The position numbers and the translations under genes were made by a program. This document shows, piece by piece, positions 2,401 to 36,329 of a stretch of DNA of 64,000 bases. The DNA comes from Octopus vulgaris (taxonomy: Eukaryota). Under the pieces are notes generated by a model, which saw only the letters and a list, made by a program, of their open reading frames with translations, had not been told where the DNA came from and did no database searches. The stretch covers positions 62,434,001 to 62,498,000 of the forward strand of contig OX597833.1 of assembly GCA_951406725.2 (NCBI GenBank), written 5' to 3'. Positions within the stretch are counted from its first letter, which is position 1; the number at the start of each line of letters is the position of its first letter.

Positions 2401-2463
2401 TCTAAGCAATTCTAATACTTTTACAAAGGCGTTCTCTAAATTCTTCTTCCGTTTCCCCTTCAG

Positions 2464-4122: not shown

Positions 4123-4196
4123 ATGTGGAATGTCTTCACACCAAAGAAACCTGGAATGTCGAAGCTGACGACGAATATGGCGGCACAACCCAGCTT
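4123..4196 (+). CDS. EXOC2: EXOC2 internal exon (DVECLHTKETWNVEADDEYGGTTQL)
   Basis: tttttag acceptor, |gtaag donor, 74 nt, phase 1/0; resembles the human KEDW..GLTSL segment. Confidence 0.92.
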
Positions 4197-4275
4197 GTAA
4201 GTAGAGGACTTGCAGACTATTATAGAATATTGTGGAGTTTTCTAGTACTGTAGAGAATTGCTGAATATTGTAGAG

Positions 4276-5532: not shown

Positions 5533-5859
5533 GAAAGACTCCGCCGGTTACGAAGACGAGGGTCACAGCTGATACGATCAACGGAACAGCTTGCTCGTGA
5601 AATTAACGTGCAAATGGCTGAGCATTCCACAGACACGTGTACCCTTAACGTAGTTCTCGGGGATAATCAGCGTGACACAGAGAGTGACAAGGCTGACCCT
5701 TTGAAATACAAGTACAACTCATTTTTGCCAGCTGAGTGGACTGGAGCAACGTGAAATAAAGTGTCTTGCTCAAGGACACAACGCGTCGCCGGGAATCGAA
5801 CTCACAACCTTACGATCATGAGCCGAATGCCCTAACCACTAAGCCACGCGCCCTCACTA
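5533..5859 (-). mobile_element. tRNA-derived SINE family D with 14-bp TSD
   Basis: TSD tatatagcattaaa at 5519-5532 and 5860-5873; tRNA-like head TGGCTTAGTGG...GAGTTCGATTCCC; body GTGTCCTTGAGCAAGACACTT. Relatives: 9005-9310(+), 15232-15460(+); different-bodied elements with a similar head at 4500-4790(-) and 16010-16312(-). Confidence 0.8.
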
Positions 5860-6116
5860 TATATAGCATTAAACATGTCTGTCTATACAGTTTGTCCATA
5901 TATGTGTTTATATATGTGTGTGTATTCTGAAGTACAGTATATAGTCTTGAAGAAAGGTATATATATATCTGCTATTCTTTTGGTGAAGCAAAGCAACCAT
6001 GTTCAGAGATCTCATTTGCTGACTTCAAATCCTCTCACTCTTGTTTCAATTCCAGCCACCGTCATTATTTGTTAATTCTGTCCAAACTAATCCATTGTCT
6101 CCTGTTTCTATTCCAG

Positions 6117-6200
6117 CCGGCGTTATTTGAAAATATTGTCAATGAAACAATTCAACATTTACATGAAGTTGTTATCCAGAACAGAACTGGGGAATATGAG
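6117..6200 (+). CDS. EXOC2: EXOC2 internal exon (PALFENIVNETIQHLHEVVIQNRTGEYE)
   Basis: ttccag acceptor, GAG|gtaaa donor, 84 nt, phase 0/0. Confidence 0.9.
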
Positions 6201-6778
6201 GTAAATATTGTTGTTGCTATAGATGTTGTTGTTGTTGGTATTAATGCTGTTGTTGTAGAAGAGGGTGTGAAAGTGTAGATAGTCTTCATCATCATCATCA
6301 TGTAGCATCCCCTTTTCCAAGCCCCCATGGGTCAGACAGAGTTTTATTGAGGCAAACATTATCATTTTTTAATAAGAAATATTTAAAATTTAGTGATGAT
6401 ATTTAACGAAATTGATGAAGAACCATAATATTTTGCTTCAATATTTTGCTGGAAATCAGTGCCTTTTAAGCTAAAATTACTGCATTCTTCCCAGATTTAG
6501 GTCACCCATAATTCAGCACCCTTAATACTCAAAATCATTTCAGATGCTTGTTAATCTCTTGGATAGCCACATATATCCCCCCACCCCCTCACTATTGACC
6601 ACTTTGCTAGGCCATTGTATATCTAGAACTACATCATCTAACATTTTCCTCTCTTTTTAAGATGTATGATTTGAGAAAATTTCAGCTGTTTTTGTCCTAG
6701 CAGGTGGGGCAAGAACTCTGGAAAATAGAACTGTCAAAAGCCCTTTCAAGTATGCTTCTTAATCTTGTTTATTTCCAG

Positions 6779-6903
6779 ATCTTCAGCCAGCAGACAACCC
6801 AGAAAGAAGCCACTATGCTATGTACCAAACTGCTCCAAGCATTCTCTGTCTGTCTCCACAAATTAGCTTTCCAACAGCCTCAGTCAATTGGAGACACAAA
6901 TAA
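6779..6903 (+). CDS. EXOC2: EXOC2 internal exon (IFSQQTTQKEATMLC...QSIGDTN)
   Basis: tttccag acceptor, AA|gttagt donor, 125 nt, phase 0/2. Confidence 0.88.
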
Positions 6904-6966
6904 GTTAGTCTTCCTATGTTTTTCACTTAACCTGTCTTTGTGTTTGTCCATCTTCTTGAGTTTATA

Positions 6967-7002
<36 letters not shown>

Positions 7003-8186
7003 TAAGAATTTTTTGCGTAATAAGATAAAAAAACCAAGGCTGTATAGATATTAGAGCATTTATAGACGCTCTAATATCTATACAGTGTTGGGTTTTTTAT
7101 CTTATTACGCCAAAAAATTCTTATATACACGCGCTGACATATGACCAACGTTGAACCCTTTATTCGCAATATCACCGAATCTGGAACTTAATTATGGTCT
7201 GTCCATAGCACTTACTCAGCATTACCTGACACCTTTGGGTCTCAATGACACCATTATCTCTTATAACCTCAACTTATATATACATATATACATACATTCA
7301 CATGCTCACACATACAAACATATATATGATCTGTTGATTAATGAACATTTGAACGTTGGGCCTCACTGAGGCAATGACAAGTGGCTGAGACCTTTGGAGA
7401 TATGCTTTGCTTGAGAAGACCTGGCAAGCCAAGTGAGACCATGACCTGAGCCAGTGCTGTATAACCAGCCCATTTAAGAGTACCCTTCAATCATTGGACA
7501 ATAAACTATGCTTGCAAAGACCTGTTGAGGCAAGTGAAATCGTTGTCGTGGCCGATGAGAGTACTGCCTGATTGGCACCTGTACCAGTGGAGCGTTAAAA
7601 GCACCATTTGAGTGTGATTGTTGCCAGGGCCGCTGACTGGCTCCCGTACTGGTGGCACATAAAAAGCACCATTCGAGCATGATCATTGCCAGCGTCGCCT
7701 AACTGGCTCCTGTGCCAGTGGCACATAAAAAGCATCATTCGTTGCCAGTGCCGTTAGACTGGCTCATGTGCACCATTTGAGTGTGGCCATTGCCAGTACT
7801 GCCTGACTGGCCCTCGTAAAAGCACTCACTACACTCTCGGTGTGGTTGGCATTAGGAAGGGCATCCAGCTGTAGAAAATCATGCCCAATCAGGCAGGAGC
7901 CTGGTGCAGCATGTCAGCCCAGTTTTTTAGTTTAAAAAAATCATCTAATCCCATGATTACTGGATGTGGCTTCTTCAAATCGTACAAATGTCTTCACCTT
8001 ATTTTCTTCCATCGAGTGAGGTTTTCTTTAACTGAAAATATTACAATCTATCTTTCATCGTGGTATTCACTCTAACATATGTAGTTTTATGATCTATTTA
8101 CATATTTCTCAATGCTTCTAAATATTTATTTTTTATGTAAACAGATTTTTAATTTTATTTATTAATTTCTGTATTTTTTCTTTCAG

Positions 8187-8220
8187 ATCTGATTCTTTAC
8201 AAGATGATCTACCACCATTT
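8187..8220 (+). CDS. EXOC2: EXOC2 34-nt small exon (SDSLQDDLPPF)
   Basis: Long polypyrimidine + cag acceptor, |gtaagt donor; phase 2/0 exactly bridges the flanking exons. Confidence 0.85.
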
Positions 8221-8265
8221 GTAAGTAAACGTTAAAACAGTTCCTAATAATAATAATAATAATAA

Positions 8266-8850
8266 ATGCCCTGATGCAGTACCAGGCAGTGACTCTCGTG
8301 GCTTCTGATCTTAACTGATTGGAAGTGTTATCATGTACATTGTTTTGTCTTGGTATAAAGGATGGGCTACAGCAAATATTCTGCTCAATACCACAGATTT
8401 GCTTGTCAGTTGTTTGACCGTAACCAGTTGAGCATGTCCCTTAGTGGCTGATGATAAGTGCATCTCTGATCACGAGCAGAAGTAGTGGGGGAGCATCATA
8501 GCCGTGTGTTGAGAGGGATTCTTGGAAGTTTGGATAATTCACCTTAGGAAATATGGGTGTTTCATTCAACATCCTTAAACAACCCTTATTCAGGGACCTT
8601 TTGAGCCGGATGGGTTACTTGACCAGAAGAAAATTCTTACTGGGCCCCACCTGCAAGGTCATGCACTGTTAATCTTGATATGAGATCACCATGTCATGCA
8701 CATATGGTTGTGATACATGTACGTGGTGTACCCTTATCAGACGGGTAGTCATGATGGGTATACTGGGCTTCATATAATTGTACCCCAGTATCACTTTGAA
8801 GGCATGCACTGCTCTCTCACTCAATAATAATAATAATAATAATGATAATA
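8266..8850 (+). mobile_element. ~560-bp non-coding dispersed element inserted in (TAA)n
   Basis: Similar copies at 63492-64000(+) and 33815-34040(-); (TAA)n runs flank the 8266 and 33815 copies. Confidence 0.7.
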
Positions 8851-9351
8851 GGAGGAGAAGGATGGGAAGATTATCAGACTTTTAGGCAGAGGAAAGATTA
8901 TCAGAAGGGTTTTGAGCACTTGAAAGATTATCAAAAGCTTGTAGATATCTAAGGTTACAGGTAGTAACCCACTTAAATTCTACCTCTGTCTAATTCATAT
9001 GTGAAGGCTTAGTGGTCAGGGTATTTGGCTCACAATCATAAGGTCCCATGTTCAATTCCCAGCAGTGCACTGTGTCCTTGAGCAAGACACTTTATTTTAC
9101 GTTGCTCCAGTCCACTCAGATGGTACAAATGAGTTGTACCTGAAATTCAAATTGCCAGCCATATCACGCTCTGTTTCACACTGAATCTCCCTGAGAACTA
9201 TGTTAAGGGTACACGTGTCTGTGGAGTACTCAGCCACTTGCACATTAATTTCACGAGGAGGCTGTTCCATCAATTGGATCAACTGGAATACTCACCTTCG
9301 TAACCAACAGAATGCTAATAACTGTATCTATATAATATCAATATTATTTCT

Positions 9352-9765
9352 GGAGTGGCTGTGTGGTAAGTAGCTTGTTTACCAACCACATGGTTCCAGG
9401 TTCAGTCCCACTGCGTAGCACCTTGGGCAAGTGTCTTCTACTATAGCCTCGGGCCAACCAAAGCCTTGTGAGTGGATTTGGTAGACGGAAACTGAAAGAA
9501 GCCCGTCGTATATATGTATATATATATATATATATGTATGCGTGGGTGTGTTTGTGTGTCTGTGTTTGTCCCCTTAGCATTGCTTGACAACCGATGCTGG
9601 TGTGTTTATGTCCCCGTTACTTAGCGGTTCAGCAAAAAGAGACCGATAGAATAAGTACTGGGCTTACAAAAGAATAAGTCCCGGGGTCGAGTTGCTCGAT
9701 TAAAGGCGGTGCTCCAGCTTGGCTGCAGTCAAATGATTGAAACAAGTAAAAGAGTAAAAGAGAGT
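9352..9765 (+). mobile_element. tRNA-derived CORE-like SINE, family A
   Basis: A-box-like GTGGCTGTGTGG, B-box-like GGTTCAGTCCC, CORE-like CACCTTGGGCAAGTGTCTT, internal (TA)n, 3' end GACTGAAACAAGTAAAAGA. Other copies: 1201-1570(-), 17687-18078, 30393-30788, 37096-37480, 41537-41915(-), 45743-46410, 49350-49755(-), 51789-52202, 55713-56096, 56947-57354. Confidence 0.85.
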
Positions 9766-9844
9766 ATTTGATATCAATATAATATCAACCAAGATATCTC
9801 ATTTATTGAATATGTTTTTTTTTTTATTTCTTTCCGTTTTGTAG

Positions 9845-9961
9845 GATAAACGTCTAATTATTATGTTGAGTAATTGCAATCACGTTTGTAATCGCGTGAT
9901 TCCAAGACTTGTGGAGAATTTAGAAAAACACGGCTATGTTGAGATGGACAAAGGATTACAG
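9845..9961 (+). CDS. EXOC2: EXOC2 internal exon (DKRLIIMLSNC...EMDKGLQ)
   Basis: tttgtag acceptor, CAG|gtaag donor, 117 nt, phase 0/0. Confidence 0.95.
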
Positions 9962-10811
9962 GTAAGTTGTTTCACATTATCTATTGTTATTGGTTCTCTT
10001 CTATTGCACCTTAATTAGTTTGGTTCAGGTGTTTGATGTTTTAGTGACGGTTGGGTCAACTGCATTGGTAGATGGCACGGTGGCCATCTAGCTGAATGGA
10101 AGGTCAGCATGTTCTGAGCTGTCACTGGTTTTATTGGTCTGTCACAAAAGTCTTTCTCTCTTTCCCCTTCTCTCTTTATCTCATCCCCTCTCTCTTCCTT
10201 TTTCTCCCTCACCCTCTCTCTTTCTTCCCCTCACCCTCTCTCTTGCTTTCTCTTCTTGTGCTGTCTTTCCTCCCTTTTTCTGTCTGCCTGTCTCTCTTTT
10301 CCCTCTCCCCATCTCTTCCACCATTCTTTTTTCTCTCTTCCTCTCTCCTCCTTTCTCTTCCCTCACACACACATATACATACAATGGGCTTCTTTTAGTT
10401 TCCATTTACCAAATTCACTCACAAAGCTTTAATTGGCCTGAGGTTTAGTTAGAAAACACTTGCTCAAGGTGAGTGGGACTGAACCTGGAACCATGTGATT
10501 GGGAAAGCAAGCATCTTACCACACAGCCACACTGAACCTAGTATGTTGAATTCTTCAGCAAAACATTTCATATCATGTTGCTTCAGTCCACTCAACTGTA
10601 AATAGGGACCCCTGTGACTGACCGGTCTCCAGTTCAAGGGAGAATATCGGCCCGCCTGCCCAGCCAGCCGGGTGGCATCATTTAGGATCTCCCACAATGC
10701 AAGGAAGTGTAGTGTGACCAGCAGTCTATACCAACATCCAATAAACAGCTTGATACAGTGATAATTGTTCATTACAAATAGTGTTTTTCTTTTTATTTTA
10801 ATTAACTACAG

Positions 10812-10953
10812 ATAGCTCAAGCAAAATATCTGGAACTGGATAATAAATTATTCGAGGCTTACATAGAAGAGAAGTCCAATCCTATAGTTGGAGCTATGGA
10901 ACAAAATATGTATCGTGGCAGCTTTGACTGGAATACCTGCACCAAACCTGTTG
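10812..10953 (+). CDS. EXOC2: EXOC2 internal exon (IAQAKYLELDNKLFEAYIEEK...FDWNTCTKPV)
   Basis: ctacag acceptor, G|gtaag donor, 142 nt, phase 0/1. Confidence 0.95.
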
Positions 10954-12466
10954 GTAAGCAGCTTCACTTTTTTCTCTCTTTTAATTCTATGTTTTGTTAT
11001 GAACAACACACGGATGACTGGCATCTGTGCTAGCAGGGTGCAAAGAGCACCATACGAGTGTGTTCGTTGACAGAGCGGCTAACTGGCTTCCGTGCCAGTG
11101 GCACATAAAAGGCACCATTCGAGTGTGATTGTTACCAGTGTCGCCTTACTGGCACTTGTGCCTGTGCTAGTAGGGTGCCAAGAGCACCATCCGAGTGTGA
11201 TCGTTGCCAGAGCAGCCAACTGGCTTCCATGCTGGTGGCACGTAAAAGGGCACTATTCGAGTATGATCGTTGCCTTACTGGCCCCTGTGCCGGTGGCATG
11301 TAAAAAGCACCCACTACACTCTCGGAATGGTTGGCATTAGGAAGGGCATCCAGCTGTAGAAACACTGCCTGATCAGACTGGAGCCTGGTGCAGCCATCTG
11401 GTTTGCCTGCCCTCAGTCAAAATCGTCCAACCCATGCTAGCATGGAAAGCGGATGTTAAACAATGACGATGATGATGAACAACAGCAATCAGATACAGGC
11501 TTTCGAATTTGCCAAATCATATTAAGAATGAATAGGTGCGTTATTGCACAAATTCATCATCTTGTAACTAAAAACAAAAATATCTGTTTCTTTTTCTTTT
11601 CATCGGTTATTATTTTGAATTCCAGGAGTGTCAGTGTGGTTAAGAAGTTTGTTTCCCAACCACATGGTTTCAGGTTCAATCCCATTGTGTATCACACTGG
11701 GCAAGTGTCATCTACTATAGCCCCAGGCTGATCAAAGCCTTGTGAGGGGATTTGGTAGATGGAAACAAAAAGAAACCTGTTATGCATGTATGTGTGTATG
11801 TTTGTATTTCCTTGTCTTTGACTTTGTGCGATGGTTGTAAATGAGTATCACTGTTATACAAGCAACGTCATTCATTTCCAGTCTTCAGTGTAAACATGTC
11901 TTGCCATGGAAAAATATTACTTTCCACCATTGTCTGGCCCCCGTGCCGGTGGCATGTACAAAGCACCATCCAATCGTGGCCGTTGCCAGCCTCTCCTGGC
12001 CCCCGTGCTGGTGGCACGTAAAAAGCACCATCCGACCGTGGCCGTTTGCCAGCCCCGTCTGGCACGTAAAAAGCACCCACTACACTCACGGAGTGGTTGG
12101 CATTAGGAAGGGCATCCAGCCGTAGAAACATTGCCAGATCAGACTGGGCCTGGTGCAGCCTTCTGGCTTCCCAGACCCCAGTTAAACCGTCCAACCCATG
12201 CTAGCATGGAAAGGGGACGTTAAATGATGATGATGATGATGATTGGCAACAGGTGATAGTTGGTTGACAGGAAGAGCACCCGGCCCAATGAATTCCATCC
12301 AACTGCTGAATTTTGGAAAGAATATAAATGTACCACAAGTGAAAAAAAGTTGTAGAACCCTGCTCTGTTATACTCCACTTTATTTTATTTATAATCTGCT
12401 GTAATCGATTGTGCTCCACTGTACTCTACTCTTCTGTACTCTTTTTCTCTTGTGTTTAAATTAAAG

Positions 12467-12522
12467 CTGTGAGGAGTTACTTGAAGGAAGTCTTAATGGG
12501 AATGATTGAAGTTCATGCTGAA
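12467..12522 (+). CDS. EXOC2: EXOC2 internal exon (AVRSYLKEVLMGMIEVHAE)
   Basis: Atypical ttaaag acceptor after an upstream pyrimidine tract, |gtaagt donor, 56 nt, phase 1/0. Confidence 0.93.
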
Positions 12523-12667
12523 GTAAGTACTTTTACTAGTTGTTGTTGTTGTTGGTAAAGAAGTGCAGTCTGTGTGTGTTGCTTCAGTCATTTGGGGTTC
12601 AATCCCACTTTCATGGTACTTTGGGCAAGTGTCTCCTACTCTAGCCCCTGGCCAGCCAATATCTTGT

Positions 12668-12869
12668 TGTTGTTGTTAAGCAACAAGACGGGTAAGGGCG
12701 ATTAGGTGATGGTCTAGGGCTTAGGGGCGGGAGACCCCAGACCTTCGAAAAAAAAAACACTGCTCGTCTTGTTGTAGTCGAGGGCTCTTCGTTGACGCCC
12801 GACACCACTGGGAGGTGGCCCTCGAAGTCGCTGGAAATGGAAATCTCCAGATCCAAATTCTTGGACAGT
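12668..12869 (-). mobile_element. Young 5'-truncated retroposon 3' end with (CAA)n tail and 13-bp TSD
   Basis: TSD gccaatatcttgt at 12655-12667 and 12870-12882; splits an older family A SINE. Confidence 0.75.
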
Positions 12870-13254
12870 GCCAATATCTTGTGAGTAGAAGGATTAACGG
12901 AGGCCTTTTCTGTGTGTGTATCTATGTATTTCTTTTATTCTTTCTTTTACTGGTTTCAGTCATTTGACTCTGGCCATGCTAGAGCACTGCCTTTAGTCAA
13001 AAGAATCGACCCTAGTACTTATTTTATCAGTCTCTTTTGCTGAACCGCAGTTGTCAAGCGATGGTGGGGAGACGTTGACATTCCATGGTTTCACTTGTAA
13101 CCATTTGACCAAAATAGTGATATGATGTTTACATTCCTTGTTGACATCACAACTGGTCATCGTGCATTTTTGAAAACCAGTGAAATGAAGGAATCCCTTA
13201 TTTGAAAAACAGAATAAGGCTGTTGACTGGAAGGACATCCATTAATAAAATACC

Positions 13255-14980
13255 CCTTCCAAAATTTTTGGGTAAAATTTTTGAAAAATTTTGGGGTAAA
13301 ATTTTTGGTGAAAATTTTCGAAAAATTTTTCGGTAAAATTTGTCAAAAATTTTCGAAAAATTTTTTGGTTAAATTTTTGGGTAAAATTTTCGGTGAAAAT
13401 TTTCAAAAAATTTTTGGGTAAAATTTTCGAAAAATTTTTTGGTAAAATTTTCGAAAAATTTTTGTGAAATTTTCAGAGAAAATTTTTGGGTAAAAATTTT
13501 TGGGGAAAATTTTCGGTGAAAATTCTCGAAAACGTTTTGGGGAAAATTTTCGAAAAATTTTTGGGTAAAATTTTCAGTGAAAAGTTTCAAAAAATTTTTG
13601 GTGAAAATTTTGGAAAAATTTTTGGGTAAAATTTTCGGTGAAAATTAAAAAAAAAATTATGGAAAGTCAGCGGTGCCAAAATCACAAAGTATGGAAAGCC
13701 AGCGGTGCCAAAATCACAAAGTATGGAAAGCCAGCGGTGCCAAAATCACAAAGTATGGAAAGCCAGCGGTGCCAAAATCACAATGTATGGAAAGCCAGCG
13801 GTGCCAAAATCACAATGTATGGAAAGCCAGTGGTGCCAAAATCACAAAGTATGGAAAGCCAGCGGTGCCAAAATCACAAATTATGGAAATTTTCGAAAAC
13901 TTTTTGGTGAAAATTTTCAAAAAATTTTTGTGTAAAATTTTGGTGAAAATTTTCAAAAAATTTTTGGGTAAAATCTTCGGTGAAAATTTTCGAAAAACTT
14001 TTGGGCAAAATTTTCGGTGAAAATTTTAAAAAAATTATGGAAAGCCAGGGGTGCTAAAATCACAAAGTATGGAAAGCCAGCGGTGCCAAAATCACAAAGT
14101 ATGGAAAGCCAGCGGTGCCAAAATCACAAAGTATGGAAAGCCAGCGGTGCCAAAATCACAAAGTATGGAAAGCCAGCGGTGCCAAAATCATAAAGTATGG
14201 AAAGCCAGCGGTGCCAAAATCATAAAGTATGGAAAGCCAGCGGTGCCAAAATCATAAAGTATGGAAAGCCAGCGGTGCCAAAATCACAAAGTATGGAAAT
14301 TTTCGAAAAATTTTTGGGTAAAATTTTTGGTGAAAATTTTCAAAAAATTTTTGGGTATAATTTTCGGTGAAAATTTTCAAAAAATATTTGGGTATAATTT
14401 TCGGTGAAAATTTTCAAAAAATTTTTGGGTAAAATTTTCGGTGAAAATTTTCGAAAAATTTTTGGGTAAAATTTTCGGTGAAAATTTTCAAAAAATTTTT
14501 GGTGAAAATTTTCGAAAAATTTTTGGGCAAAATTTTCGGTGAAAATTTTCGAAAAATTTTTGGGCAAAATTTTCGGTGAAAATTTTCGAAAAATTATGGT
14601 AAGCCAGCGGTGCCAAAATCATAAAGTATGGAAAGCCAGCGGTGCCAAAATCATAAAGTATGGAAAGCCAGCGGTGCCAAAATCATAAAGTATGGAAAGC
14701 CAGCGGTGCCAAAATCATAAAGTATGGAAAGCCAGCAGTGCCAAAATCACAAAGTATGGAAATTTTCGAAAAATTTTTGGTGAAAATTTTCAAAAAATTT
14801 TTGGGTAAAATTTTTGGTGAAAATTTTCAAAAAATTTTTGGGTAAAATTTTCGGTGAAAATTTTCAAAAAATTTTTGGGTAAAATTTTCGGTGAAAATTT
14901 TCGAAAAATCTTTGGGCAAAATTTTCGGTGAATTTTTGGGTGAAAATTTTCGAAAAATTTTCCAAAACAAGTATGGAAGA
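13255..14980. repeat. Compound satellite: 32-bp unit arrays alternating with A/T-tract arrays
   Basis: GTATGGAAAGCCAGCGGTGCCAAAATCA(C/T)AAA x7 (13658-13885), x8 (14036-14298), x5 (14595-14760), separated by GGTGAAAATTTTCGAAAAATTTTTGGGTAAAATTTTC-type repeats. Confidence 0.95.
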
Positions 14981-15180
14981 CTGATGTTAAATGAATGAAC
15001 ATATATGATCATCATCATATATATAATAATAATAATTATGAACAAATATATAATTATCATCATTTAATATCCAATTTCCATGCTGGCTTGGACAGTTTGA
15101 TAGGAGCTGGTCAGTTGGAGAGCTGACCAGGTTCAAATTATCCGTTTTGGCATGGTTTCTACAGCTGGATGTCCTTAATG

Positions 15181-15231
<51 letters not shown>

Positions 15232-16639
15232 GAGGTGCGTGGGTTAGGGTTTTGAACTCATGATCGTAAGATTGTGGTTTCGATTCCTGGACTGGGCAAC
15301 GCCTTGTGTTCTTGAGCAAGACACTTCATTTCATGTTGCTCCAGTTCACTCAGCTGGCAAAAATTAGATAGACTGGCACCCCGTCCAGTTGGGGAACACA
15401 TACGCCATAGAAACCGGGAAACCAGGCCCATGAGCCTGGCTAGGCTTTTAAAGGGTGCATTTATTTTATATATATATATATAATACATACAAAAAAAGAG
15501 AGAGGTGTTGCTAAATATTTGGTGGCATATCTCCTAAAAAAGATGATCTTGTGTAATGTTATATATCAATATATATAATGTAGCTATGTTCTGAATAAAT
15601 ACGCTACAGAAATGTATGTAGTAATATTCACAATACCCATTCATCACGTGAAAAACAACATTCGAGTGAGGTTGTTGCCAGTGCCACTGGACTGGTTCCT
15701 GTGCAAGTGTCACATAAAAAACACCATTTGAGTGTGGCCGTCATCAGTACCGCCTGACTGGCCCTCATGCCGGTGGCAGGTAAAAACACCCACTATACTC
15801 TCGGAGTGGTTGGCGTTAGGAAAGGCATCCAGCTGTAGAAACTCTGCCAGATCAGACTGGAGCCTGGTGCAGCCATTTGGCTCACCAGTTCTCAGTCAAA
15901 CTCTCCAACCTATGCTAGCATGGAAAGCAGACGTTAAACGATGATGATGATGATGTATATAATTCGTTTTACATCTGTTCTTTTATGTGTATGTATGTGC
16001 ATATATATATCACCGTGACCGACCAGGCTATCAGATGTTGCTACACATCGCTGGTCACAATGCGCTTAGCATTGTTTTTAACCTTCAAATGATGCCACCC
16101 CGCTGGCTAAGCGAGCAGGCCAACAGAAGAAAGAATGAGAGAAAGTTGTGGCAAAAGAGTACAGCAGAGATCGCCACAACCCCCTGCCGGAGCCTCGTGG
16201 AGCTTTAGGTGTTTTCGCTCAATAAACACTCACAACGCCCGGTCTGGGAATCGAAACTGCGATCCTACAACCGTGAGTCCGCTGCCCTAACCATTGGGTC
16301 ATTTGCGCCTCCACACACACACACACACATACATACATACATATATATAAATAAATTTTTTTAAAAATGATGTTTAATAAATTTATTCAGAAACTGAAAT
16401 ATGCTTCACATCTCACAACTCCTAAGTTTCATTACTTGAACTTATTTTATGGGGGGAAAACTATTAGTTGTAATGCAGATAACGAAGGCAGTTCAGCTTT
16501 TGAATAAATTTGTTACGCACAACATGTTGGTATTGAGTTCTTTTATTTAAACCTACTTTAACTCCTTTTATAATATCTAATATATATCATATGAATGTCA
16601 GTTTTTAAAATCTTTTGTCCCCTGCTCCCTCTTTCTCAG

Positions 16640-16762
16640 GTTTACGCAGTTTTTCCATCTTTTGTCCCACGAGTTATGTGCAAGGTCGTTGAAGCTGTTG
16701 CTGAAGAACTCTCTCGTCTGATGCTGTGTAGTACAGGTTTCAATTCCAACGGAGCTCTTCAG
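16640..16762 (+). CDS. EXOC2: EXOC2 internal exon (VYAVFPSFVPRV...FNSNGALQ)
   Basis: ctttctcag acceptor, CAG|gtgag donor, 123 nt, phase 0/0. Confidence 0.95.
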
Positions 16763-17271
16763 GTGAGCTGCTATGTTATGTTGTTGTTTCTTCTTTGTTT
16801 ACTGGTTTCACTCATTGGACTGTGGGCCATGCTGTAGCTCCACCTTCAAGGGTTTTAGTTGATTATGTCGATGCCTTAATAATAATAATAATTTTCTAAT
16901 TTAATAATAATAAATTTTCTTTACATAATTTATTAATTTTTGAAAAGTAGCCTCGCCTGGCCCCCGTGCCGGTGGCACGTAAAAAGCACCATCCGTCTGT
17001 GGCCGTTGCCAGCCTCACCTGGCCCCCATTTGCCAGCTCCGTCTGGCACCTGTGCGGGTGGCATGTAAAAAGCACCCACTACACTCATGGAGTGGTTGGC
17101 GTTAGGAAGGGCATCCAGCCGTAGAAACATTGCCAGATCAGACTGGGCCTGGTGCAGCCTTCTGGCTTCCCAGACCCCAGTTGAACCGTCCAACCCATGC
17201 TAGCATGGAAAGCGGACGCTTGATGATGATGATGATGATGATGAATAAGAGCAACATTGTTTATATTTCAG

Positions 17272-17333
17272 GCTCGTCTTGAACTGATTGCTCTGCAAGA
17301 CGCCGTGTCCGCTTACCGAAATGATGCTGCCAT
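17272..17333 (+). CDS. EXOC2: EXOC2 internal exon (ARLELIALQDAVSAYRNDAA)
   Basis: atttcag acceptor, AT|gtaagt donor, 62 nt, phase 0/2. Confidence 0.95.
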
Positions 17334-18380: not shown

Positions 18381-18434
18381 AAAACATTTCCAAGAAGCTT
18401 TGGCCATTCTCACACCAATCGGCTCAAGTAAAAA
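18381..18434 (+). CDS. EXOC2: EXOC2 penultimate exon (KHFQEALAILTPIGSSK)
   Basis: atttcag acceptor, AA|gtaagt donor, 54 nt, phase 2/2; resembles human SFKQALEAL. Confidence 0.92.
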
Positions 18435-27523: not shown

Positions 27524-27605
27524 GATGATGGACGAGATACTCAACAAGTTCAAATCTCAGATGCAATTCCAGCTGATGTCTTTCCAAACGGATCGCTGTC
27601 TCTAA
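27524..27605 (+). CDS. EXOC2: EXOC2 terminal exon A ((K)MMDEILNKFKSQMQFQLMSFQTDRCL*)
   Basis: tcttttcag acceptor, phase 2, TAA stop; close match to the remembered human C-terminus [23 protein letters not shown]. Confidence 0.92.
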
Positions 27606-28041
27606 CAGGGGGAACTGCTGCTGCTGCTGTTCTCGCTACTACTACTACTACTACTGCTACTACTAACCCACCTCTTTTCCGACTTAACAAAGATAGGAGG
27701 GGAAAAAGTTTATATTTATTTTAACGTTGAACTGTGTTGAATGAATGACAGAAGAGTGCTCAATACTGGTTGTAGAGTATATGGCTTATTGAAACTGAAA
27801 TGTTTAAAACTGCACATCATGACTCAGATTAAATGCCACTGTGATGTTGAAGCAAGTTCATACCTGAAGATTGCAGTAGCATGAAACCGAAGTTGTGGGA
27901 TAGAAACTTTATACATTTATTTATATATTTATTATATTTATCACTCTGACGTTGCCAACTTTTATTCCTATTGCATTTCTGTGGCTTTTTCCACAAAACA
28001 TTTCTGGTCCTCTACTCGCACACATACACACTCACACAAAA

Positions 28042-28083
<42 letters not shown>

Positions 28084-29415
28084 CTTATAATCTTCTTTGG
28101 CAGCACTAAAATGCGGACCGATGTACATTTGGAGAATCAACAAACTGTGACAACCACTTGCCTCTCTCCTCCCACCATCACTCCCAAGAGGCAAACTTTC
28201 CGGAATTCCTTCCCCCTTCTTCACTACATTGACCCCTGCTGATTTTGGCTTAAACTGAACATCAGCTGTATTAATCCGACCTGAAAGGGATAGTGGCAAA
28301 TGAAAGGTCAAGGATACTGACTTAGAGGGTCAGTAGCCAATTAGTTTCCCTGAGTGGTCTGTACCTTTGACCTTTCTCTTGGTATATTTTATTTCTTCTT
28401 TGCTATTTTGAAGCCACACAGTTAAGTTTCTCACATTCTATAGAATTGTCATATTGTTACATTTTGGTTAAACCATTCCTTGGCGTAATGGCGATGCCAG
28501 AAAATGCTTTTGGTACATGGCAGCTGTTGAACCATTCTAGAAAGGGCAAAGGTGGCAGTGTTCTTCTCCGACCTTATATTCCAGTCATGGTCCTCTACTG
28601 TTCTCTGCAGAACTGCACTTTAGCATTCTCTGCAACCATCACATACCCAAGATATGCACAGATCTGGGGTATGTGATGAACAGATGTTTTCTAGACTGTT
28701 CTGCTGTGAAGAGGTATCAGGTTGGAGTAGAAGCCTACAGTGACCATCACTGAGCAATAGCTGTCTTATTGAGTCCTCCCCCCCTCTCTCTCTGACAATG
28801 TCTGTCTGTCTCTCTCTCTCTCTCTTCCTCTAACACTCTCTCTTTCTTCGACAATGTCTCTCTCCTTCTCCCTGATAATGTCTCTCTCTTTCTCTCTCTC
28901 TGACAGTCTCTCTACCTCTAGACTCCACCACCCTCTAACCTCTTAATATATCGCCTTCTCCACTCCTTAACTCCTACCTCCTCCCCTAATCCTTTACCCA
29001 TTCCCCTCTCCACCTCCACACCGTTCTCTTCAGATTCCCATCTTTCCTGCCACCCTCAACCCTCCCCATTCAACTTCCTAACCATTCCATTCTAATTCTC
29101 CAGCTGAACATTAATTAATTAATTGCACTAACAAAACCATTCCTTATGACAATACCAATTACTAATCAACTTCACACTAATTAAACCATTCTTGATCACT
29201 ACACCAATTCCATTAGTCAAATGGAGCTTTCCAAAGGTTATGGGCATGTCCCTTTGTCATTAGGCCGACAGTTTCAACAATGAAAAGAAAGCAAACCTGC
29301 AAATCCACACCGGTTTTTTGAGCTTAATGCTGACACCCAATTTACTGCCCACACATTTATATATACCTATGTATGTATCCTGATTATGTGTACATATAGT
29401 TATATGGGTACTTTG

Positions 29416-29475
<60 letters not shown>

Positions 29476-29478
<3 letters not shown>

Positions 29479-29834
29479 TAGCACCTCGGTTTTCAAATAT
29501 CTCTGATCTTGAATAAATTATGCTTTATATATATATATATATGTGTGTGTGTGCGTGCGTGTGTATCGTTGGCGATTTTTTTTTTTCCTTCGTCTTCCCT
29601 TCCTTGGGCCTTTCCTTTTTCTATGTTTCTGATGAAGAGCTCCGCTCGAAACATTAAATCCCCCTTCTTTCTTTCCTTTCCTGAGCGTCCAATAACACTA
29701 TGCTTGTTCCGCATCCCTGCGTCCCTGCGTTTTCTCTTTGTGTTTTCATGTTTGGATTAACTATATATATAGATAGATAGATATAAAGCACAATTTATTC
29801 GTGATCAGAGTTGTTCGAAAACCGAGGTACTACT
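29476..29834. mobile_element. Tigger/pogo-like MITE interrupted by a hammerhead-bearing element
   Basis: TIR CAGTAGCACCTCGGTTTTC / GAAAACCGAGGTACTACTG; TA on the right flank. Confidence 0.7.
29625..29659 (+). ncRNA. Type I minimal hammerhead motif, same family as 53201-53236
   Basis: GTTT CTGATGA A GAGC tcc GCTC GAA ACAT T AAAT; stem III ACGT>ACAT is consistent with CpG decay. Confidence 0.55.
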
Positions 29835-29923
29835 GTATATATAAAACATAACCTTATCAGGTATACATATACCTATACATATACCCTGATTTTGTGTACA
29901 TATAGTTATATGTGTACCTTGAT

Positions 29924-29959
<36 letters not shown>

Positions 29960-30256
29960 TATATATAAAATATACCCTGATCATGTATACATGTACCTTG
30001 ATAACTGCTACATATACCTGTATATTTACCCTGATCACATGTACATACACCTATATATCAACCCTTATCATGTATACTTACATATGTACCCTGATCATGT
30101 GTACATATAGCAATCCATGTACCCTGATCACACTCACATATACATACACCCAGACATATTGTATACAAAATGTTTTTGCCTCCCCCCCTCCTCCTCTGAT
30201 AATAGTTTGAAACTTGTTTTTGTTTCTTTTTATATTTTGCTGTTTTTATTTCTATA

Positions 30257-30262
30257 AATAAA
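30257..30262 (+). terminator. Candidate polyadenylation signal for the exon-A isoform
   Basis: AATAAA preceded by a U-rich tract and followed by GTTGTGTCTTT; lies between terminal exons A and B. Confidence 0.4.
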
Positions 30263-32680
30263 AGTTAACTATGAAGTTGTGTCTTTCATCCTTTGGCTAA
30301 TAATAATAAACTTATTAATTTCTCTTGTACACACAAAGGCTATCTTCTATGGTTGCTGATAGTGAGTGTCAGACTAAAGAATATGGTATAATAGGTGACG
30401 GAGTGACTGTGTGAAGTAGCTTGCCTACCAACCACATGGTTCTGGGTTCAGTCCCACTGCGTGGCATCTTGGGCAAGTGTCTTCTGCTATAGCCTCGGGC
30501 CGACCAATGCCTTGTGAGTGGATTTGGTAGACGGAAACTGAAAGAAGCCTGTCGTATATATGTATATGTATGTGTATGTATATGTTTGTGTGTCTGTATT
30601 TGTCCCCCAACATTGCTTGACAACCGATGCTGGTGTGTTTACGTCCCCGTCACTTAGCGGTTCGGCAAAAGAGACCGATAGAATAAGTACTGGGCTTACA
30701 AAGAATAAGTCCTGGGGTCAATTTGCTCGACTAAAGGCGGTGCTCCAGCATGTCCGCAGTCAAATGACTGAAACCAGTAAAAGAGAGTTGTTCTATGGTC
30801 CCTGGCCCCACACAGTTGTGATGTAGTTGAGGTGGTAACTTGTGGTTATGAGATGGATGAGCTGTGTGTGATGTGTTCACTGGTCCCTTCTGCCTGCTTC
30901 TAGAAACCTTAGTTGACTGAGCAGGGACTGAGTCATTAGTAGGCATAAATCAATAATTGTGGGGTGGGGTGAGAGTTGCAGAAATTGGCTTGAAAGAATG
31001 AGTTGAATTTCAGTTCTTTACCTTGCTGTTGCTGCTTTGTTTGTTTGTTTGTTGAGTGAAGCGGTCTTCGTCCCAGAGCTCGCAAGATCACACCTCAGGA
31101 TTGTCTGTTGTAGGAGAAGTCTGAAACGTGGTCCTTTGCTATTCGTAAGACAAGTAAAAACAGTCACAGAAAAACTGGTCAGCAACCAACTGAAGAAATG
31201 CAGAAAGATGTTTTAAGGCTTCAAGAAGAAGGATGGATATTTATTGAAGGACACAGAAATAAACTGTCCCTTTTTAAGAGAAATGTGTGTGTGTGTGTAT
31301 GTAAAAAACAGCCACTACACTTACAGAGTGGTTGACATTAGGAAGGGCATCCAGCTGTAGAAACATTGCCAGATCAGACTGGAGCCTGGTGCAGCCTCCT
31401 GGCTTCTCAGACCCTGGTTGAACTGGCCAACCCATGCTAGCATGGAAAACAGACGTTAAACAATGATGATATATATATATATGTGTGTGTATCTGATGGA
31501 CTCTTCCATCGAAGACATCATACGAGTGTTCAGCCTTTGCTGAATGACCTGCACAAATGGTTTGTTTATTGTGATCGAATGCAAGTGTTGTACATTAACC
31601 CACTCACTCCATTAAATCGATGTTGCCTGAACAGGTGCCACATGTCAGGTGTCAAAGTCATTGCAGAGCAACGCCGAATGAAGTGTTTTGCTTAAGAACA
31701 CTAAGCACGACCCAGTCTAGGAATTGAAACCGTGACCACTAGGCCATAATACATCTGGCACATCCACTGCAGAGGATGCAAATAGGCACAACTGTGAAAC
31801 AGCCGTAGGGAACAAATGATGTAAACTTATGTTTATCTTACTTTTTCCAGTATTTGCTCTGTATATTGTAACCAGTAAAATTACTAAGTACAGTAGTAAC
31901 CAAATCACCTAACTAGAAGCAGACTCGGTGATGATATACTTTGTGGAAATCGGCGAGCTGGTAGAAACATTAGCACGCCAGGTGAAATGCTTAGTGGTAT
32001 TTCGTCTGTCGTTACGTTGTGGGTTCAAATTCCGCCGAGGTTGACTTTGCCTTTCATCCTTTCGGGGTCGATAAATTAAGTACCAGTTACACACTGGGTC
32101 GATGTAATTGACTTAATACCTATGTCTGTCCTTGTTTGTCCTCTCTATGTTTATCCCCTTGTGGGTAATAAAGAAATAGGTATTTCGTCTGCCACTACGT
32201 TTTGAGTTCAAATTCCGTCAAGGTCGACTTTGCTTTTCATCCTTTCGGGGGTCGATTAAATAAGTACCAGTTACGCACTGGGATCGATATAATCAACTTA
32301 ATCCTTCTGTCTCTCCTTGTTTGTCCCCTCTGTGTTTAGCCCCTTGTGGGTAATAAAGAAATACATACACTATGCGGAGCTTTAAAATCACCAGTAGCTG
32401 TCATACATCAAACTGTACACACAAGATATACAATATATTGTACTTCATCAACCAAGAGGAGGTGGAAGTTTCACTGAAGGAGTGTTCTTTGCCTCGAAGA
32501 TCTGGAACTAGCGTCAGCATCAGATTGCAGATCTTGCAGTAAGGTGGCTTCAGACAGTGCAACATGATGGCTTTAACTTTAAATGCTAGGCTCTCTTGTT
32601 ATAACTTGAAGAAGAAAGCAAATAAGTTATAGAATATAGAAAAACTTTTGACTCAACATAATAAAAAATATACATATATA

Positions 32681-33181
32681 TACCGTAAATCCTTGAGAAT
32701 AATCCATATTTTCCCCCAAAATTTAAAGGTCAAAATCTCTGGTGCGTACTATATACGAGGTTAAAAATGAAAATTATTTTCTGAGCAATGTCCGAGTCTC
32801 TATTTGCTGTCTGGCAATGTTTATTCAGACGCATTTTGTGATGTCGGGCGTGAAAATACCTGAAAACAATGAAGTCATAAAAGAATCCTCCATAACTTGC
32901 AGTAAGCAACATTTATTAAACATTATTACTGTTATTTCTTTATTTTCTGCAAACAAAATGCACAAAAAAGCTACACGTTTGCATTATCTTATATATACAA
33001 TAATAGTAAAGGACGTTAGCATATACAGTTTTACAAACCAAGGACGTTATATGGACCTCCTTGATTCAAGTTAGAGAAGGGGTTGCATATTATACACAAG
33101 GTTTAGGTTTTTCAGAGGTACAGCCCCCTAAAAATCCCCTGCGTATTATACTCAAGGGTGGACTATACTTGAGGATTTATG

Positions 33182-33183
<2 letters not shown>
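32681..33183. mobile_element. MITE with ~25-bp imperfect TIRs
   Basis: TACCGTAAATCCTTGAGAATAATCC ... GGACTATACTTGAGGATTTATGG. Confidence 0.65.
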
Positions 33184-33234
<51 letters not shown>

Positions 33235-33570
33235 TACATACATACATATGTGTGTGTGTGTTTATGTCCCTCTTGTCTTGACATTACATTATGGCTGTAA
33301 GCGAGTGTCACCATCATACAAGCAGTGTTGTTTGTTTCCAGTCTTCCATGAAAACATGTCTGGCAACAGGTGAGGGTTGGCAACAGGAAGGGCATCTGGC
33401 TGTAGAAAATCTGTATCAATGAATTCCATCCGATCCATGCAAACATGGAAAAGTAGATGTTAAAACAATGTTGGTGATGATTTGCTGTGCACACAAAAAT
33501 GGAATTTTCATTGAAGATTGAAATGGTTAGGGAAAACTCATGGAATCAATCCAGGAATTTTTACATTGGA

Positions 33571-33601
<31 letters not shown>

Positions 33602-34041
33602 GCAGAATCATTACCGCTCCAGGCAAATGCTTAGTAACATTTGGTCCGTCTTTACATTCTGAGTTCAAATTCCACCGAGGTCAACTTTACCTTTTATCCT
33701 GTCGAGGTCAGTAAGTACCAATTGTGTACCGGAGTTGATGTAATCGACAATCCCCTCCCCCAAATTTCAGGCCTTGTGCCTATGGCAGAAAAGTTACCAT
33801 TATTATTATTATTAGTTAGTGAGAGAGCAGTGCATGCCATCAAAGAGACACTGGGGTAAAATATACGAAGCCCAGTTTACCCATCATGACTACCTGTCTG
33901 ATAAGGGTACACCAGGCACATGCATAACAACCATATGTGCATGACATGGTGATCTTGTATCAAGATAAAGAGCACATGACCTTGCAGGTGAGTCCCAGTT
34001 AGAATTTTCTTCAGGTCGAGTAACCCATCCCGCTCAAAAGG

Positions 34042-34079
<38 letters not shown>

Positions 34080-34793
34080 AAAGTGGCAAGCTGGCAGAAT
34101 TGTTAGTATGCTGAGAAAAATACTTAGCAGCATTTCATCTGCATTTACATTATGAGTTCAAACCTTGCCTTTCAACCTTTCAGGGTTGATAAAATAAGTA
34201 CCAGTTGAGAAGAGGGGGGTGGCATTGATGTAATCCACTTAGCCGCTTCCCAAAAATTGCTGGCCTTGCATCAAAATTTGAAACCATTATTATTTTATAT
34301 GGGGCATTTTTTATACTAAAATTTAGTTTTGCATAATTTACTACATCATTAACAAATGAACTTAAGCTTAATTTTTGATTGATATTATATGAATTATGAT
34401 GATAATAATAATAATAATAATAATAATTTATTAACCAGTAAAAGTTTATGAGCAGGATGATACAAAATATGATGTAGGTGTTTAAACGGTAAAATAATAA
34501 CAAAATGATAATTACTGTTCTTATTCTAACTCCTGTTCATTTTCCAGAAATCTTTCGTCACACATCTGTGACCTCTTCAGCAACACTTTCCATCCTTGTG
34601 TGTGCTCCTGCTCCACTTAGTCCATTCTATTCTTCCATTTGGCAAAAAAAAAAAAAAAAAAAACTAAAAATTGACCATCCCGAAATACAACAATATCTGT
34701 TTCAACACCACGGTTTCACATCAGGAATCTTGCAACACAAATTCATATACATAAATATGATAATAATAATGCTAATAATAATAATGATTTCTT

Positions 34794-34830
<37 letters not shown>

Positions 34831-35031
34831 AAACTTAGGATCAATTTTCTGAATGTTTTGCAGTATATTGATTGTGTAAATGAAGTTGTGTGTTTAAATG
34901 TTTCTTTTTTATTTTGTTTATTTTTATTTTTTATTATTATAATTTTTTTTTTTTGAATTGCTCATTTATCTGTTAATATATTTCACTGAACGATGGAACT
35001 TAATTAAAAAATGTCTTGAACATTCTTACAG

Positions 35032-35125
35032 AACCGAAGAAATACTTCTGACCGACTTCAAATCAACGATGCGATTCCACCTTATGTGCTTCTATGCCGA
35101 CAGTGTAGTAGAAACTCCTGCCTAA
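35032..35125 (+). CDS. EXOC2: EXOC2 alternative terminal exon B ((K)TEEILLTDFKSTMRFHLMCFYADSVVETPA*)
   Basis: ttcttacag acceptor, phase 2, intact frame to TAA; aligns without gaps to exon A (FKS-x-M-x-F-x-LM-x-F). Confidence 0.82.
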
Positions 35126-36329
35126 CAGATCCATCGTGGAAATTTCCTCACCACACAGGGGTGCTAATGGTTGTGCTTATATCATTTTTTTAAAAACATT
35201 ATTAATATTATCATTATTTTGCTCGTATTCCATGTACCAGTCACATATTGGGGTCACTATCATCGATTTATACATCCCACCGCCTCCCCAGCAATGTATG
35301 GTCCAGGGCTGAAGTAAGAAATCTTTATTATTATTATTATTAAGCTTAAGGTGGTGTGCTGGCAGAATCGTTACTGTGCCGAGCAAAACGCTCCGTGGAA
35401 TTTCATTTGACTTTACGTTTTGAGTTCAGATTCTGCCGAGGCTGGTTTTTGCCTTTCAGCCTTAATGAAATATGTACCAGTCATATACTGGGGGATCGAT
35501 GTAATCAAATTACCTCCTACCCCTAAATTACAGCCTTATGCTAAAATTTGAAACCATTATTATTACTAATTAATATTTCAAGGTTGAAGTTACTCTTCAC
35601 GAAGACAAAGAAAGAAAGAAAGAAAGAAGAGCGAAACTGTTATTGGTAATAAACAGAGATTGACTCTTACATTTTGAACTTGTAAAAGACACACGGAGTC
35701 TTGAAATATTGTTCATTCATTTTCATCTTAATAAACAAAGTCAATCTCTATTTATTACCAATAACAGTCGTGCTCTTCTTCTTCTTCTTCTTCTTATTAT
35801 TACTATTATTATTACTAAGGCAGCGAGCTGGCAGAATTGTTAGCATGCTGGGTGAAATGCTTAGTGGTATTTCACCTGTCTTTATGTTCTGAGTTCAAAT
35901 TCCGCCAAAGTTGACCTTGCTTTTCATCCTTTCGGGCTCAATAAATTAAGTTCCAGTGAAACACTGGGGTCAGTGTAAACAACTAGTCCCTTTCCCCCCC
36001 AAATTACAGGCCTTGTACCTATAATAAAGGATTATTATTATCATTATTATCATTATTATTATTAAGGCAGTGAGAGCTGGCAGAGTCGTTAGCACACCAG
36101 GCAAAATGCTTAGCAACATTCTGTCTGTCTTTCCATTCTGAGCCCAAATTCTACTGAGATAGACTTTGCCTTTCATCATTTTGGAGTTGATGAAATTAGT
36201 ACCAGTCAAGTACTGGAGGGTCATTGTAATCAACTTCACTCTTCCCTTAAAAATTGCTGGCCCTGTGCCGAACTTTGAAGCCATTGTTATTATCAAGCTA
36301 GTAATACGTTCATTTGATTAGCAGGAATG

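What the first reader, a model, noticed from the sequence alone, without database searches (positions are those of the whole stretch)
27524..35125. EXOC2/Sec5 has tandemly duplicated, mutually exclusive terminal exons
Seen: the penultimate exon (ending 18434, phase 2) can splice in frame to either 27524 (KMMDEILNKFKSQMQFQLMSFQTDRCL*) or 35032 (KTEEILLTDFKSTMRFHLMCFYADSVVETPA*). Both have good acceptors and intact frames, and align without gaps (FKS-x-M-x-F-x-LM-x-F) despite heavy nucleotide divergence. Known: this is the C-terminal helix of exocyst subunit Sec5; exon A is closer to the vertebrate sequence. Inference: an old exon duplication kept under selection, giving two exocyst isoforms with different C-termini and 3' UTRs, possibly tissue-specific. 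I know of no description of this.
Basis: partly seen in the sequence, partly recalled or inferred. Interest (0 to 1): 0.8.

Follow-up and report, generated by a model that had tools for sequence, protein, structure and literature searches.

The report
Squid-octopus Sec5 has two alternative tails
The octopus gene for Sec5, a subunit of the exocyst complex that tethers secretory vesicles, ends in two old, intact copies of its last exon, both also seen in a squid- or cuttlefish-like relative, and only one copy keeps a short end-of-protein motif predicted to bind adaptor proteins; databases already list both forms.

Summary
Observation confirmed. A single-copy EXOC2/Sec5 gene (27 shared exons) can splice in frame to exon A (27524) or exon B (35032). 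The two exons are homologous (10 of 26 residues identical, synonymous sites near saturation, no clear flank similarity).

Both forms are already RefSeq isoforms X1/X2 in two Octopus species, and Argonauta has B. An unnamed decapodiform-like transcript pair carries both endings at the same junction. The duplication therefore most likely predates the octopus-squid split (285-340 My) and is under selection.

New here: the copies diverged in complementary ways. A keeps the ancestral helix surface but lost the tail. B changed the helix surface but keeps a C-terminal [ST]-x-[AC] motif (ETPA/ESVA), also found in 10 of 13 other mollusc and nemertean Sec5 sequences. The motif fits a class I PDZ ligand, possibly for GIPC; this is untested.

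I have no junction reads for this species and no tissue data. My searches found no paper on it. The class (duplicated alternative last exons) is well known; the scan noted it before in other genes, not in EXOC2.

The parts
18381..18434 (+). Last shared (penultimate) EXOC2 exon, phase-2 donor GTAAGT
27524..27605 (+). Terminal exon A, coding part with stop: last helix plus a 6-residue tail (QTDRCL), no PDZ-type end; stronger acceptor; intron 9,089 nt
   Evidence: equals RefSeq X2 (P0013, P0014)
27828..27833 (+). ATTAAA, first candidate poly(A) signal after exon A (first AATAAA at 29512); use not shown
35032..35125 (+). Terminal exon B, coding part with stop: last helix plus a 10-residue tail, predicted flexible, ending ETPA; weaker acceptor; intron 16,597 nt
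   Evidence: equals RefSeq X1 (P0001)
35648..35653 (+). AATAAA, first candidate poly(A) signal after exon B (next at 35730); use not shown
97..17333 (+). Twelve further shared EXOC2 exons: 97-147, 1016-1185, 2464-2585, 4123-4196, 6117-6200, 6779-6903, 8187-8220, 9845-9961, 10812-10953, 12467-12522, 16640-16762, 17272-17333. Fourteen more lie upstream of the window, back to about -20981.
   Evidence: all 27 junctions GT-AG and consistent with P0014

Best explanation
The single octopus EXOC2 gene has two homologous, intact last exons, likely duplicated in the ancestor of octopods and decapodiforms and likely chosen by alternative last-exon splicing, that swap the end of the Sec5 rod and likely switch a predicted PDZ-binding tail on (B) or off (A). 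Shown: both exons, both frames, both isoforms in databases, and a spliced B form in a decapodiform-like record. Inferred: the strong proximal acceptor plus proximal polyadenylation gives A as the default, and skipping it gives B (about 0.9 that both are functional isoforms). Inferred: assembly into the exocyst is unchanged, because the swapped part lies at the far end of the helical rod and keeps its hydrophobic core positions. Predicted and untested (about 0.3): B's E-[ST]-x-A end is the ancestral mollusc PDZ ligand, and its most likely reader is GIPC, a myosin VI adaptor that accepts Ala or Cys as the last residue. B-containing exocyst would then gain an adaptor link that A-containing exocyst lacks.
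For: (1) Single intact gene; no upstream exon is duplicated between A and B, and no second copy of exon B was found elsewhere in the genome (a floor). (2) RefSeq X1 = B and X2 = A, identical over the 881 shared residues, in O. sinensis and O. bimaculoides; Argonauta X1 = B. (3) Unnamed Logan proteins P0003 (A) and P0031 (B) are identical at 882 of 884 upstream residues and diverge at the same junction. P0031's 914 codons sit on a 2,912-nt contig, so it is spliced. This pair is 92% identical to the Sepia cluster and 83% to Octopus. (4) A-A across the two lineages is 19-20 of 23 identical. B-B is 15 of 30, with equal length, His at 897 where 49 of 53 outgroup rows have Gln, and an E-[ST]-x-A end. 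Tree: A 87/94, B 66/77. (5) A vs B pS 0.73-0.80, pN 0.34-0.37. Under neutral decay at 1.0 substitution per site, 0 of 20,000 simulated exons stayed intact with 15 or more identities; at 0.5 the share was 0.6%. (6) AlphaFold model (mean pLDDT 80): exon B encodes a confident helix to residue 901 and a low-confidence tail at 904-911; best PDB match is yeast exocyst 5yfp_B. (7) [ST]-x-[AC] ends 4 of 4 B rows, 0 of 4 A rows, 10 of 13 other mollusc and nemertean rows and 0 of 3 vertebrate rows, although tail lengths differ widely (7-19 aa); base rate about 1%. (8) Literature: the class I consensus allows A and C; GIPC1 binds Cys- and Ala-ending ligands (10.1101/2023.03.23.533931) and PlexinD1 SEA, linking cargo to myosin VI (PMC5461112). 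This genome encodes a GIPC.
Against: No junction reads for this species were seen. RefSeq isoforms are predictions whose read support I did not see. B occurs in only 1 of 9 decapodiform-like Logan records with a complete C-terminus (1 of 73 contig counts), and in 0 of 7 in the Sepia cluster. Independent duplications are not formally rejected (AU p = 0.084), and the B node is weak and joins long branches. B changes faster than A and than the rest of the protein: Octopus-Argonauta 22 of 30 vs 90.8%; octopus-decapodiform 15 of 30 vs 82.7%. Octopus B has Glu at 883, where 96% of outgroup rows are hydrophobic. The tail motif is only three residues long, the rows are related, and it is absent in Mytilus (VSA, class II), Solemya, two unionids, one scallop model and all vertebrate rows. 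Ala at the last position is often a weak PDZ ligand (recalled). I chose GIPC after seeing the motif.
Confidence: 0.6

Rival explanations
1. Both exons are kept mainly for their different 3' UTRs (mRNA stability, localisation, translation); the protein differences are tolerated drift on a surface-exposed end.
For: The exons have unrelated downstream sequence (local score 28, reached by 11 of 500 shuffles) and separate candidate poly(A) signals. B drifts faster than the rest of the protein. Hydrophobic core positions are kept in both.
Against: B's length and E-[ST]-x-A end are kept across octopods and the decapodiform-like record while the middle of the tail changed. UTR selection would not explain that.
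Confidence: 0.2
2. B is a real but minor isoform under weak constraint (enough to fold), with no distinct job.
For: Weak acceptor. B is 1 of 73 contig counts among decapodiform-like records. Faster evolution.
Against: Retention for about 300 My is very unlikely without selection. Shared derived residues. B is the annotated form in the only Argonauta record seen. Logan contigs are likely to break where both isoforms coexist (inference), so the counts are biased.
Confidence: 0.1
3. Octopods and decapodiforms duplicated the last exon independently (convergence), or the duplication is older than cephalopods and B is related to the gastropod exon.
For: The AU test rejects neither octopod A+B together (p = 0.084) nor B plus caenogastropods (p = 0.097). 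Caenogastropod helices score as well or better against B than against A in 2 of 4 rows.
Against: Independence needs either the short MMDE...QTD form or the 30-residue His/ExxA form to arise twice. No second ending was seen in any bivalve or gastropod cluster listed. A cephalopod A+B clade is the least penalised of the three constraints (p = 0.355).
Confidence: 0.08
4. Exon B is a dead duplicate, an assembly artefact or the remnant of a partial gene copy.
For: No reads were laid for this species.
Against: Saturated synonymous sites exclude a haplotype artefact. No neighbouring exon is duplicated. B is intact in two named Octopus species, Argonauta and a spliced decapodiform-like record.
Confidence: 0.02

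Closest known systems
RefSeq/GenBank models: O. sinensis XP_029647749.1 (X1) / XP_029647750.1 (X2); O. bimaculoides XP_052830890.1 (X1) / XP_052830891.1 (X2); Argonauta hians GAB1601968.1
   Same: The same two isoforms. The O. sinensis X1 and X2 endings are letter-for-letter exons B and A of this window.
   Different: Automatic annotation only; it does not state homology of the exons, their age or the tail motif.
Tandem exon duplication-derived C-terminal substitutions (Martinez Gomez et al.; PMC9741552, PMC8373072)
   Same: Homologous alternative 3' coding exons that swap a C-terminal segment; 77 of 236 human events are of this kind, described there as ancient and enriched for tissue-specific isoforms (passages).
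   Different: EXOC genes were not found in that catalogue: 0 hits in the main text of PMC9741552 and in the 1 supplement held for PMC8373072. This event appears confined to coleoid cephalopods in my sample.
Sec8/EXOC4 C-terminal ITTV motif binding SAP102 and PSD-95 (PMC10577314)
   Same: An exocyst subunit using its extreme C-terminus as a PDZ ligand; that paper also notes a flexible C-terminal loop in Sec5 models.
   Different: Different subunit, Val-ending, binding shown experimentally, not reported there as switched by splicing. For Sec5-B, binding is only predicted.
GIPC PDZ ligands (PlexinD1 SEA, RGS-GAIP, Cys-ending receptors)
   Same: Small residue (Ala or Cys) at the end, with Ser or Thr at -2 in the PlexinD1 case.
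   Different: I saw no report of an exocyst subunit as a GIPC ligand, but did not search for one. PlexinD1 also needs a second hydrophobic contact that I did not test in B.

Membership tests
EXOC2/Sec5 | N-terminal IPT/TIG Ral-binding domain plus Sec5 helical domain | tested here: met
   Pfam PF01833 and PF15469 far above cut-off for both isoforms; PDB 1hk6/1uad by sequence; 5yfp_B best fold match
Tandem-duplicated alternative last exons | Two homologous exons in tandem, same phase, behind one shared donor | tested here: met
Tandem-duplicated alternative last exons | Each exon has its own stop codon and downstream 3' end signal | tested here: inconclusive
   Stops shown; poly(A) hexamers present but use not shown
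Tandem-duplicated alternative last exons | Both junctions used in transcripts | tested here: met
   Met for the decapodiform-like pair P0003/P0031 on cDNA-sized contigs. In Octopus only RefSeq models; no reads seen for this species
Tandem-duplicated alternative last exons | Conservation of both copies across species | tested here: met
Internal mutually exclusive exons (Dscam/Mhc type) | Internal exons spliced on both sides to shared downstream exons | tested here: not met
   Both exons carry the stop codon and no shared downstream coding exon exists
Class I PDZ-binding motif | [ST]-x-[ACVILF] at the free C-terminus | tested here: met
   ETPA/ESVA match, A forms do not (consensus)
Class I PDZ-binding motif | Accessible, unstructured terminus | tested here: met
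   Predicted only: residues 904-911 pLDDT < 50, no secondary structure after 901
Class I PDZ-binding motif | Binding to a PDZ domain that depends on the last residues | not tested

The most novel reading that the evidence does not exclude
Mollusc Sec5 ancestrally ends in a GIPC-type PDZ ligand. Coleoid cephalopods duplicated the last exon and turned this into a splicing switch: a default exocyst without the ligand (A) and a regulated one (B) that couples to GIPC/myosin VI or another PDZ adaptor, possibly in neurons or other polarised cells. This would be a splice-controlled adaptor link on a core exocyst subunit, fixed about 300 My ago.
Probability: 0.22. Interest if true: 0.65.

Novelty: new member of a known kind. 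Interest (0 to 1): 0.38.

Why it matters
Sec5 is an essential subunit with no paralogues in humans (PMC7537385). A conserved pair of C-termini would let cephalopods build two exocyst variants from one gene. The comparison also exposes a conserved end motif on mollusc Sec5 that I found no paper on, and gives a cheap test (peptide-PDZ binding, isoform ratios by tissue). As a class of event it is ordinary, and both isoforms are already in RefSeq, which caps the interest.

Tried and rejected
Reads: the search for runs holding exon B plus 175 nt of downstream sequence listed 24 runs. Twenty hold 0.96-1.00 of 23 sampled words (7 studies), but no RNA holder is listed, so this is not used as evidence. 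Eighteen of the 20 are contig sets of 48-115 million letters. No reads or contigs could be laid on the region, so junction use and tissue pattern in this species stay open.

Structure: the single-sequence fold was useless (pLDDT 38).

Homologue searches: the search for short fragments with a B ending found 0 of 12 candidates significant. The metagenome scan gave 18 pattern hits, 0 confirmed. The Sec8 C-terminal family search in the genome found nothing, controls included, so whether octopus Sec8 keeps its PDZ tail is unknown. A genome search with the last 71 residues of the A form found only this locus and missed exon B itself, so it is insensitive. Rfam found 0 hits in 17000-40000.

Other taxa: scallop 919 vs 907 aa differs at the N-terminus; Mytilus and Sinanodonta isoforms differ internally, not at the end. 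Crinoid, priapulid, anemone, barnacle and scorpion clusters each showed one ending; one crab model ends differently after a shared helix and was not followed up.

Rejected ideas: a partial gene duplication or haplotype artefact. B as the gastropod-type exon is not supported but not rejected. dN/dS on the B branch alone could not be computed: no relative's DNA is held.

Literature: 'EXOC2' + 'alternative last exon', 0 papers; 'Sec5, exocyst, alternative splicing, C-terminal, isoforms', 12 papers, none on this by listing; 'EXOC2' + 'octopus', 3 papers, irrelevant by listing. Subscription journals and bioRxiv supplements were not searchable.
Full report
1. Observation. The exon at 18381-18434 ends in phase 2 before GTAAGT. 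Joined to 27524 it reads ...SSKKMMDEILNKFKSQMQFQLMSFQTDRCL*; joined to 35032 it reads ...SSKKTEEILLTDFKSTMRFHLMCFYADSVVETPA*. A and B align without gaps: 45 of 83 nt (12-28 at the 12 other offsets) and 10 of 26 aa. B is by far the best match to A among 1,297 AG-preceded frames of the window (41 vs next best 11). The coding parts are similar beyond chance (0 of 500 shuffles), the upstream 100 nt are not (339 of 500), and the downstream sequence is at most marginal (11 of 500). A's acceptor is strong and B's is weaker but within the gene's range (10.8 vs 3.8 bits).

2. The gene. The window is G000:C20:62434001-62498000. Mapping the Octopus proteins onto the window and 60 kb upstream gives one intact gene of 27 shared exons, all junctions GT-AG, followed by A (intron 9,089 nt) or B (16,597 nt). 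The other 26 introns are 421-4,117 nt. No other exon is repeated between A and B, and exon B matched only itself in the genome (that search is a floor). Pfam, PDB sequence and fold searches identify it as EXOC2/Sec5.

3. Use and conservation. RefSeq lists X1 (911 aa, B) and X2 (907 aa, A) for O. sinensis and O. bimaculoides, identical over the 881 shared residues; Argonauta hians X1 ends in B. That such models usually rest on RNA-seq is recalled; I did not see their support. An unnamed Logan pair gives direct transcript evidence. P0003 ends in A and P0031 in IVDNLLDDFKSKMQFHLMCFHCEDLHESVA, with 882 of 884 upstream residues identical and the switch at the same lysine. P0031's 914 codons fill a 2,912-nt contig, so it is spliced. 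The pair is 92% identical to the cluster holding Sepia pharaonis EXOC2 and 83% to Octopus, so I call it decapodiform-like (inference). Among 9 decapodiform-like Logan records with a complete end, 8 are A (72 contig counts) and 1 is B (1 count). A therefore looks like the default, with the caveat that such contigs probably break where both forms coexist. No reads were laid for this species.

4. Age and selection. A-A between octopods and decapodiforms is 19-20 of 23 identical. B-B is 15 of 30, with equal length, His at 897 (Gln in 49 of 53 outgroup rows), Asp/Asn at 889 (commonest outgroup residue Lys) and an E-[ST]-x-A end. If the common ancestor had had only one form, the other would have had to arise twice. 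A 24-row, 34-column tree groups A at 87/94 and B weakly at 66/77. AU tests reject nothing: independent duplication p = 0.084, B with caenogastropods 0.097, cephalopod A+B 0.355. The octopod-decapodiform split is given as 285-340 My in PMC10925132 (passages). Between A and B, pS is 0.73-0.80 and pN 0.34-0.37. Neutral decay keeps an intact exon with 15 or more identities in 0 of 20,000 runs at 1.0 substitution per site, 0.6% at 0.5 and 10% at 0.3; the true neutral distance was not measured. B does evolve faster than A and than the rest of the protein. No second ending appeared in the bivalve, gastropod or other invertebrate clusters listed, apart from one unexamined crab model. That is a small sample, and Nautilus was not seen.

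5. What the swap changes. In the AlphaFold model built on 59 sequences (pLDDT 80, pTM 0.60), exon B gives the final helix (877-893, 895-901) and a low-confidence tail at 904-911. The hydrophobic positions 886, 887, 890, 894, 896, 898 and 901 are kept in octopus A and B. Most differences fall at polar positions, where A mostly keeps the ancestral residue (E885, N888, K889, Q897) and B does not; octopus A alone lost the near-invariant Cys900. The tails show the reverse. A's is 3-6 residues, while B's is 10 residues ending in [ST]-x-A. That end occurs in 4 of 4 B rows, 0 of 4 A rows, 10 of 13 other mollusc and nemertean rows (STA, TAA, SSC, SKC, SYA) and 0 of 3 vertebrate rows, and also in two limpets. 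Over all 194 stored proteins in which the last helix was recognised, 17 of 79 distinct tails match, all from molluscs, a nemertean or unnamed mollusc-like records. The base rate from composition is about 1%. The rows are related, so this is one or a few origins. Still, the motif stays fixed to the terminus while tail length varies from 7 to 19 residues, as expected of a terminal ligand (inference). Exceptions are Mytilus (VSA), Solemya, two unionids and one scallop model.

6. Mechanism. Likely: competition between the strong proximal acceptor with proximal polyadenylation (A) and skipping to the distal exon (B). Exclusivity follows from each exon carrying its own stop. Exocyst assembly is probably the same for both: an N-terminal EXOC2 fragment still associates with the complex (PMC7537385, passages), and the human subunits' C-terminal rods show little inter-subunit contact and point outward (10.1101/2024.10.07.617058, passages). 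The swap should therefore affect outside partners. [ST]-x-[ACVILF] is the class I PDZ consensus, Pro at -1 is tolerated (p38gamma ETPL), and GIPC1 is noted for Cys- and Ala-ending ligands (10.1101/2023.03.23.533931, passages). GIPC tethers cargo to myosin VI and binds PlexinD1's SEA end (PMC5461112, passages; DOI recalled). This genome encodes a GIPC with an intact PDZ exon. I commit to 'B keeps a PDZ ligand, A drops it' at about 0.3, with GIPC the likeliest reader. It is a post hoc, untested prediction, and Ala-ending ligands are often weak (recalled).

7. Comparison and novelty. The event is a member of the known class of tandem-duplicated C-terminal exon substitutions (77 of 236 human events; PMC9741552, passages). 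EXOC genes were not found in that text or in the one supplement held for PMC8373072 (otherwise listing only). It is not an internal mutually exclusive exon pair. A PDZ ligand on an exocyst subunit is known for Sec8 (PMC10577314, abstract and section 16). PMC11555703 (passages) has no mention of isoforms. Three searches found no paper on EXOC2 alternative last exons. Earlier notes of this scan report the same kind of event in other genes and genomes (unchecked AI notes), none in EXOC2.

8. Verdict. Real, old, conserved and already annotated automatically: a new member of a known kind, interest 0.38. The tail-motif switch is the part worth testing.

Noticed in passing
G000:C20 upstream of the window (window-relative -49711 to -32032; L006-L008): An RPAP3-like gene of 10 exon matches lies about 11 kb upstream on the same strand. 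GenBank model CAI9737961.1 (P0012, 1473 aa) fuses it to EXOC2-B, while the O. sinensis RefSeq keeps them apart (P0015); probably an annotation fusion.
   Followed up: partly
Mollusc and nemertean EXOC2 proteins P0008, P0010, P0056, P0057, P0059, P0171, P0232; crab P0206: A C-terminal [ST]-x-[AC] motif is kept across gastropods, several bivalves and a nemertean, and the crab protein ends in SLA; absent from the vertebrate rows. I found no paper on it but did not search for it specifically.
   Followed up: partly
window 27579-27581 (exon A codon 19): Octopus exon A has Ser where 52 of 53 outgroup rows, decapodiform A and all B forms have Cys (LMCF), and a three-residue extension (RCL) relative to decapodiform A.
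   Followed up: no
L009/L010, window-relative about 68565 and 78021, + strand: Two open frames that look like immunoglobulin-domain exons mark the next gene downstream, more than 33 kb beyond exon B; named by eye only.
   Followed up: no
window 13245-15008: A long array of short tandem repeats, alternating with a second repeated unit, inside the 4.1-kb intron 12523-16639.
   Followed up: no
window 44154-44744 (-), 52584-53096 (-), 57792-58142 (-): Fragments that look like LINE reverse transcriptase remnants, among many SINE-like repeats; named by eye only.
   Followed up: no
G000:C13:76029000-76082000 (L013, L014): GIPC gene with a roughly 52-kb stretch between the two GH1-encoding exons and the whole PDZ domain in one exon.
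   Followed up: partly
P0206 vs P0244 (Scylla paramamosain): Two crab Sec5 models share the last helix but end differently (...TQSLA vs a longer tail); could be alternative tail splicing or a model error.
   Followed up: no
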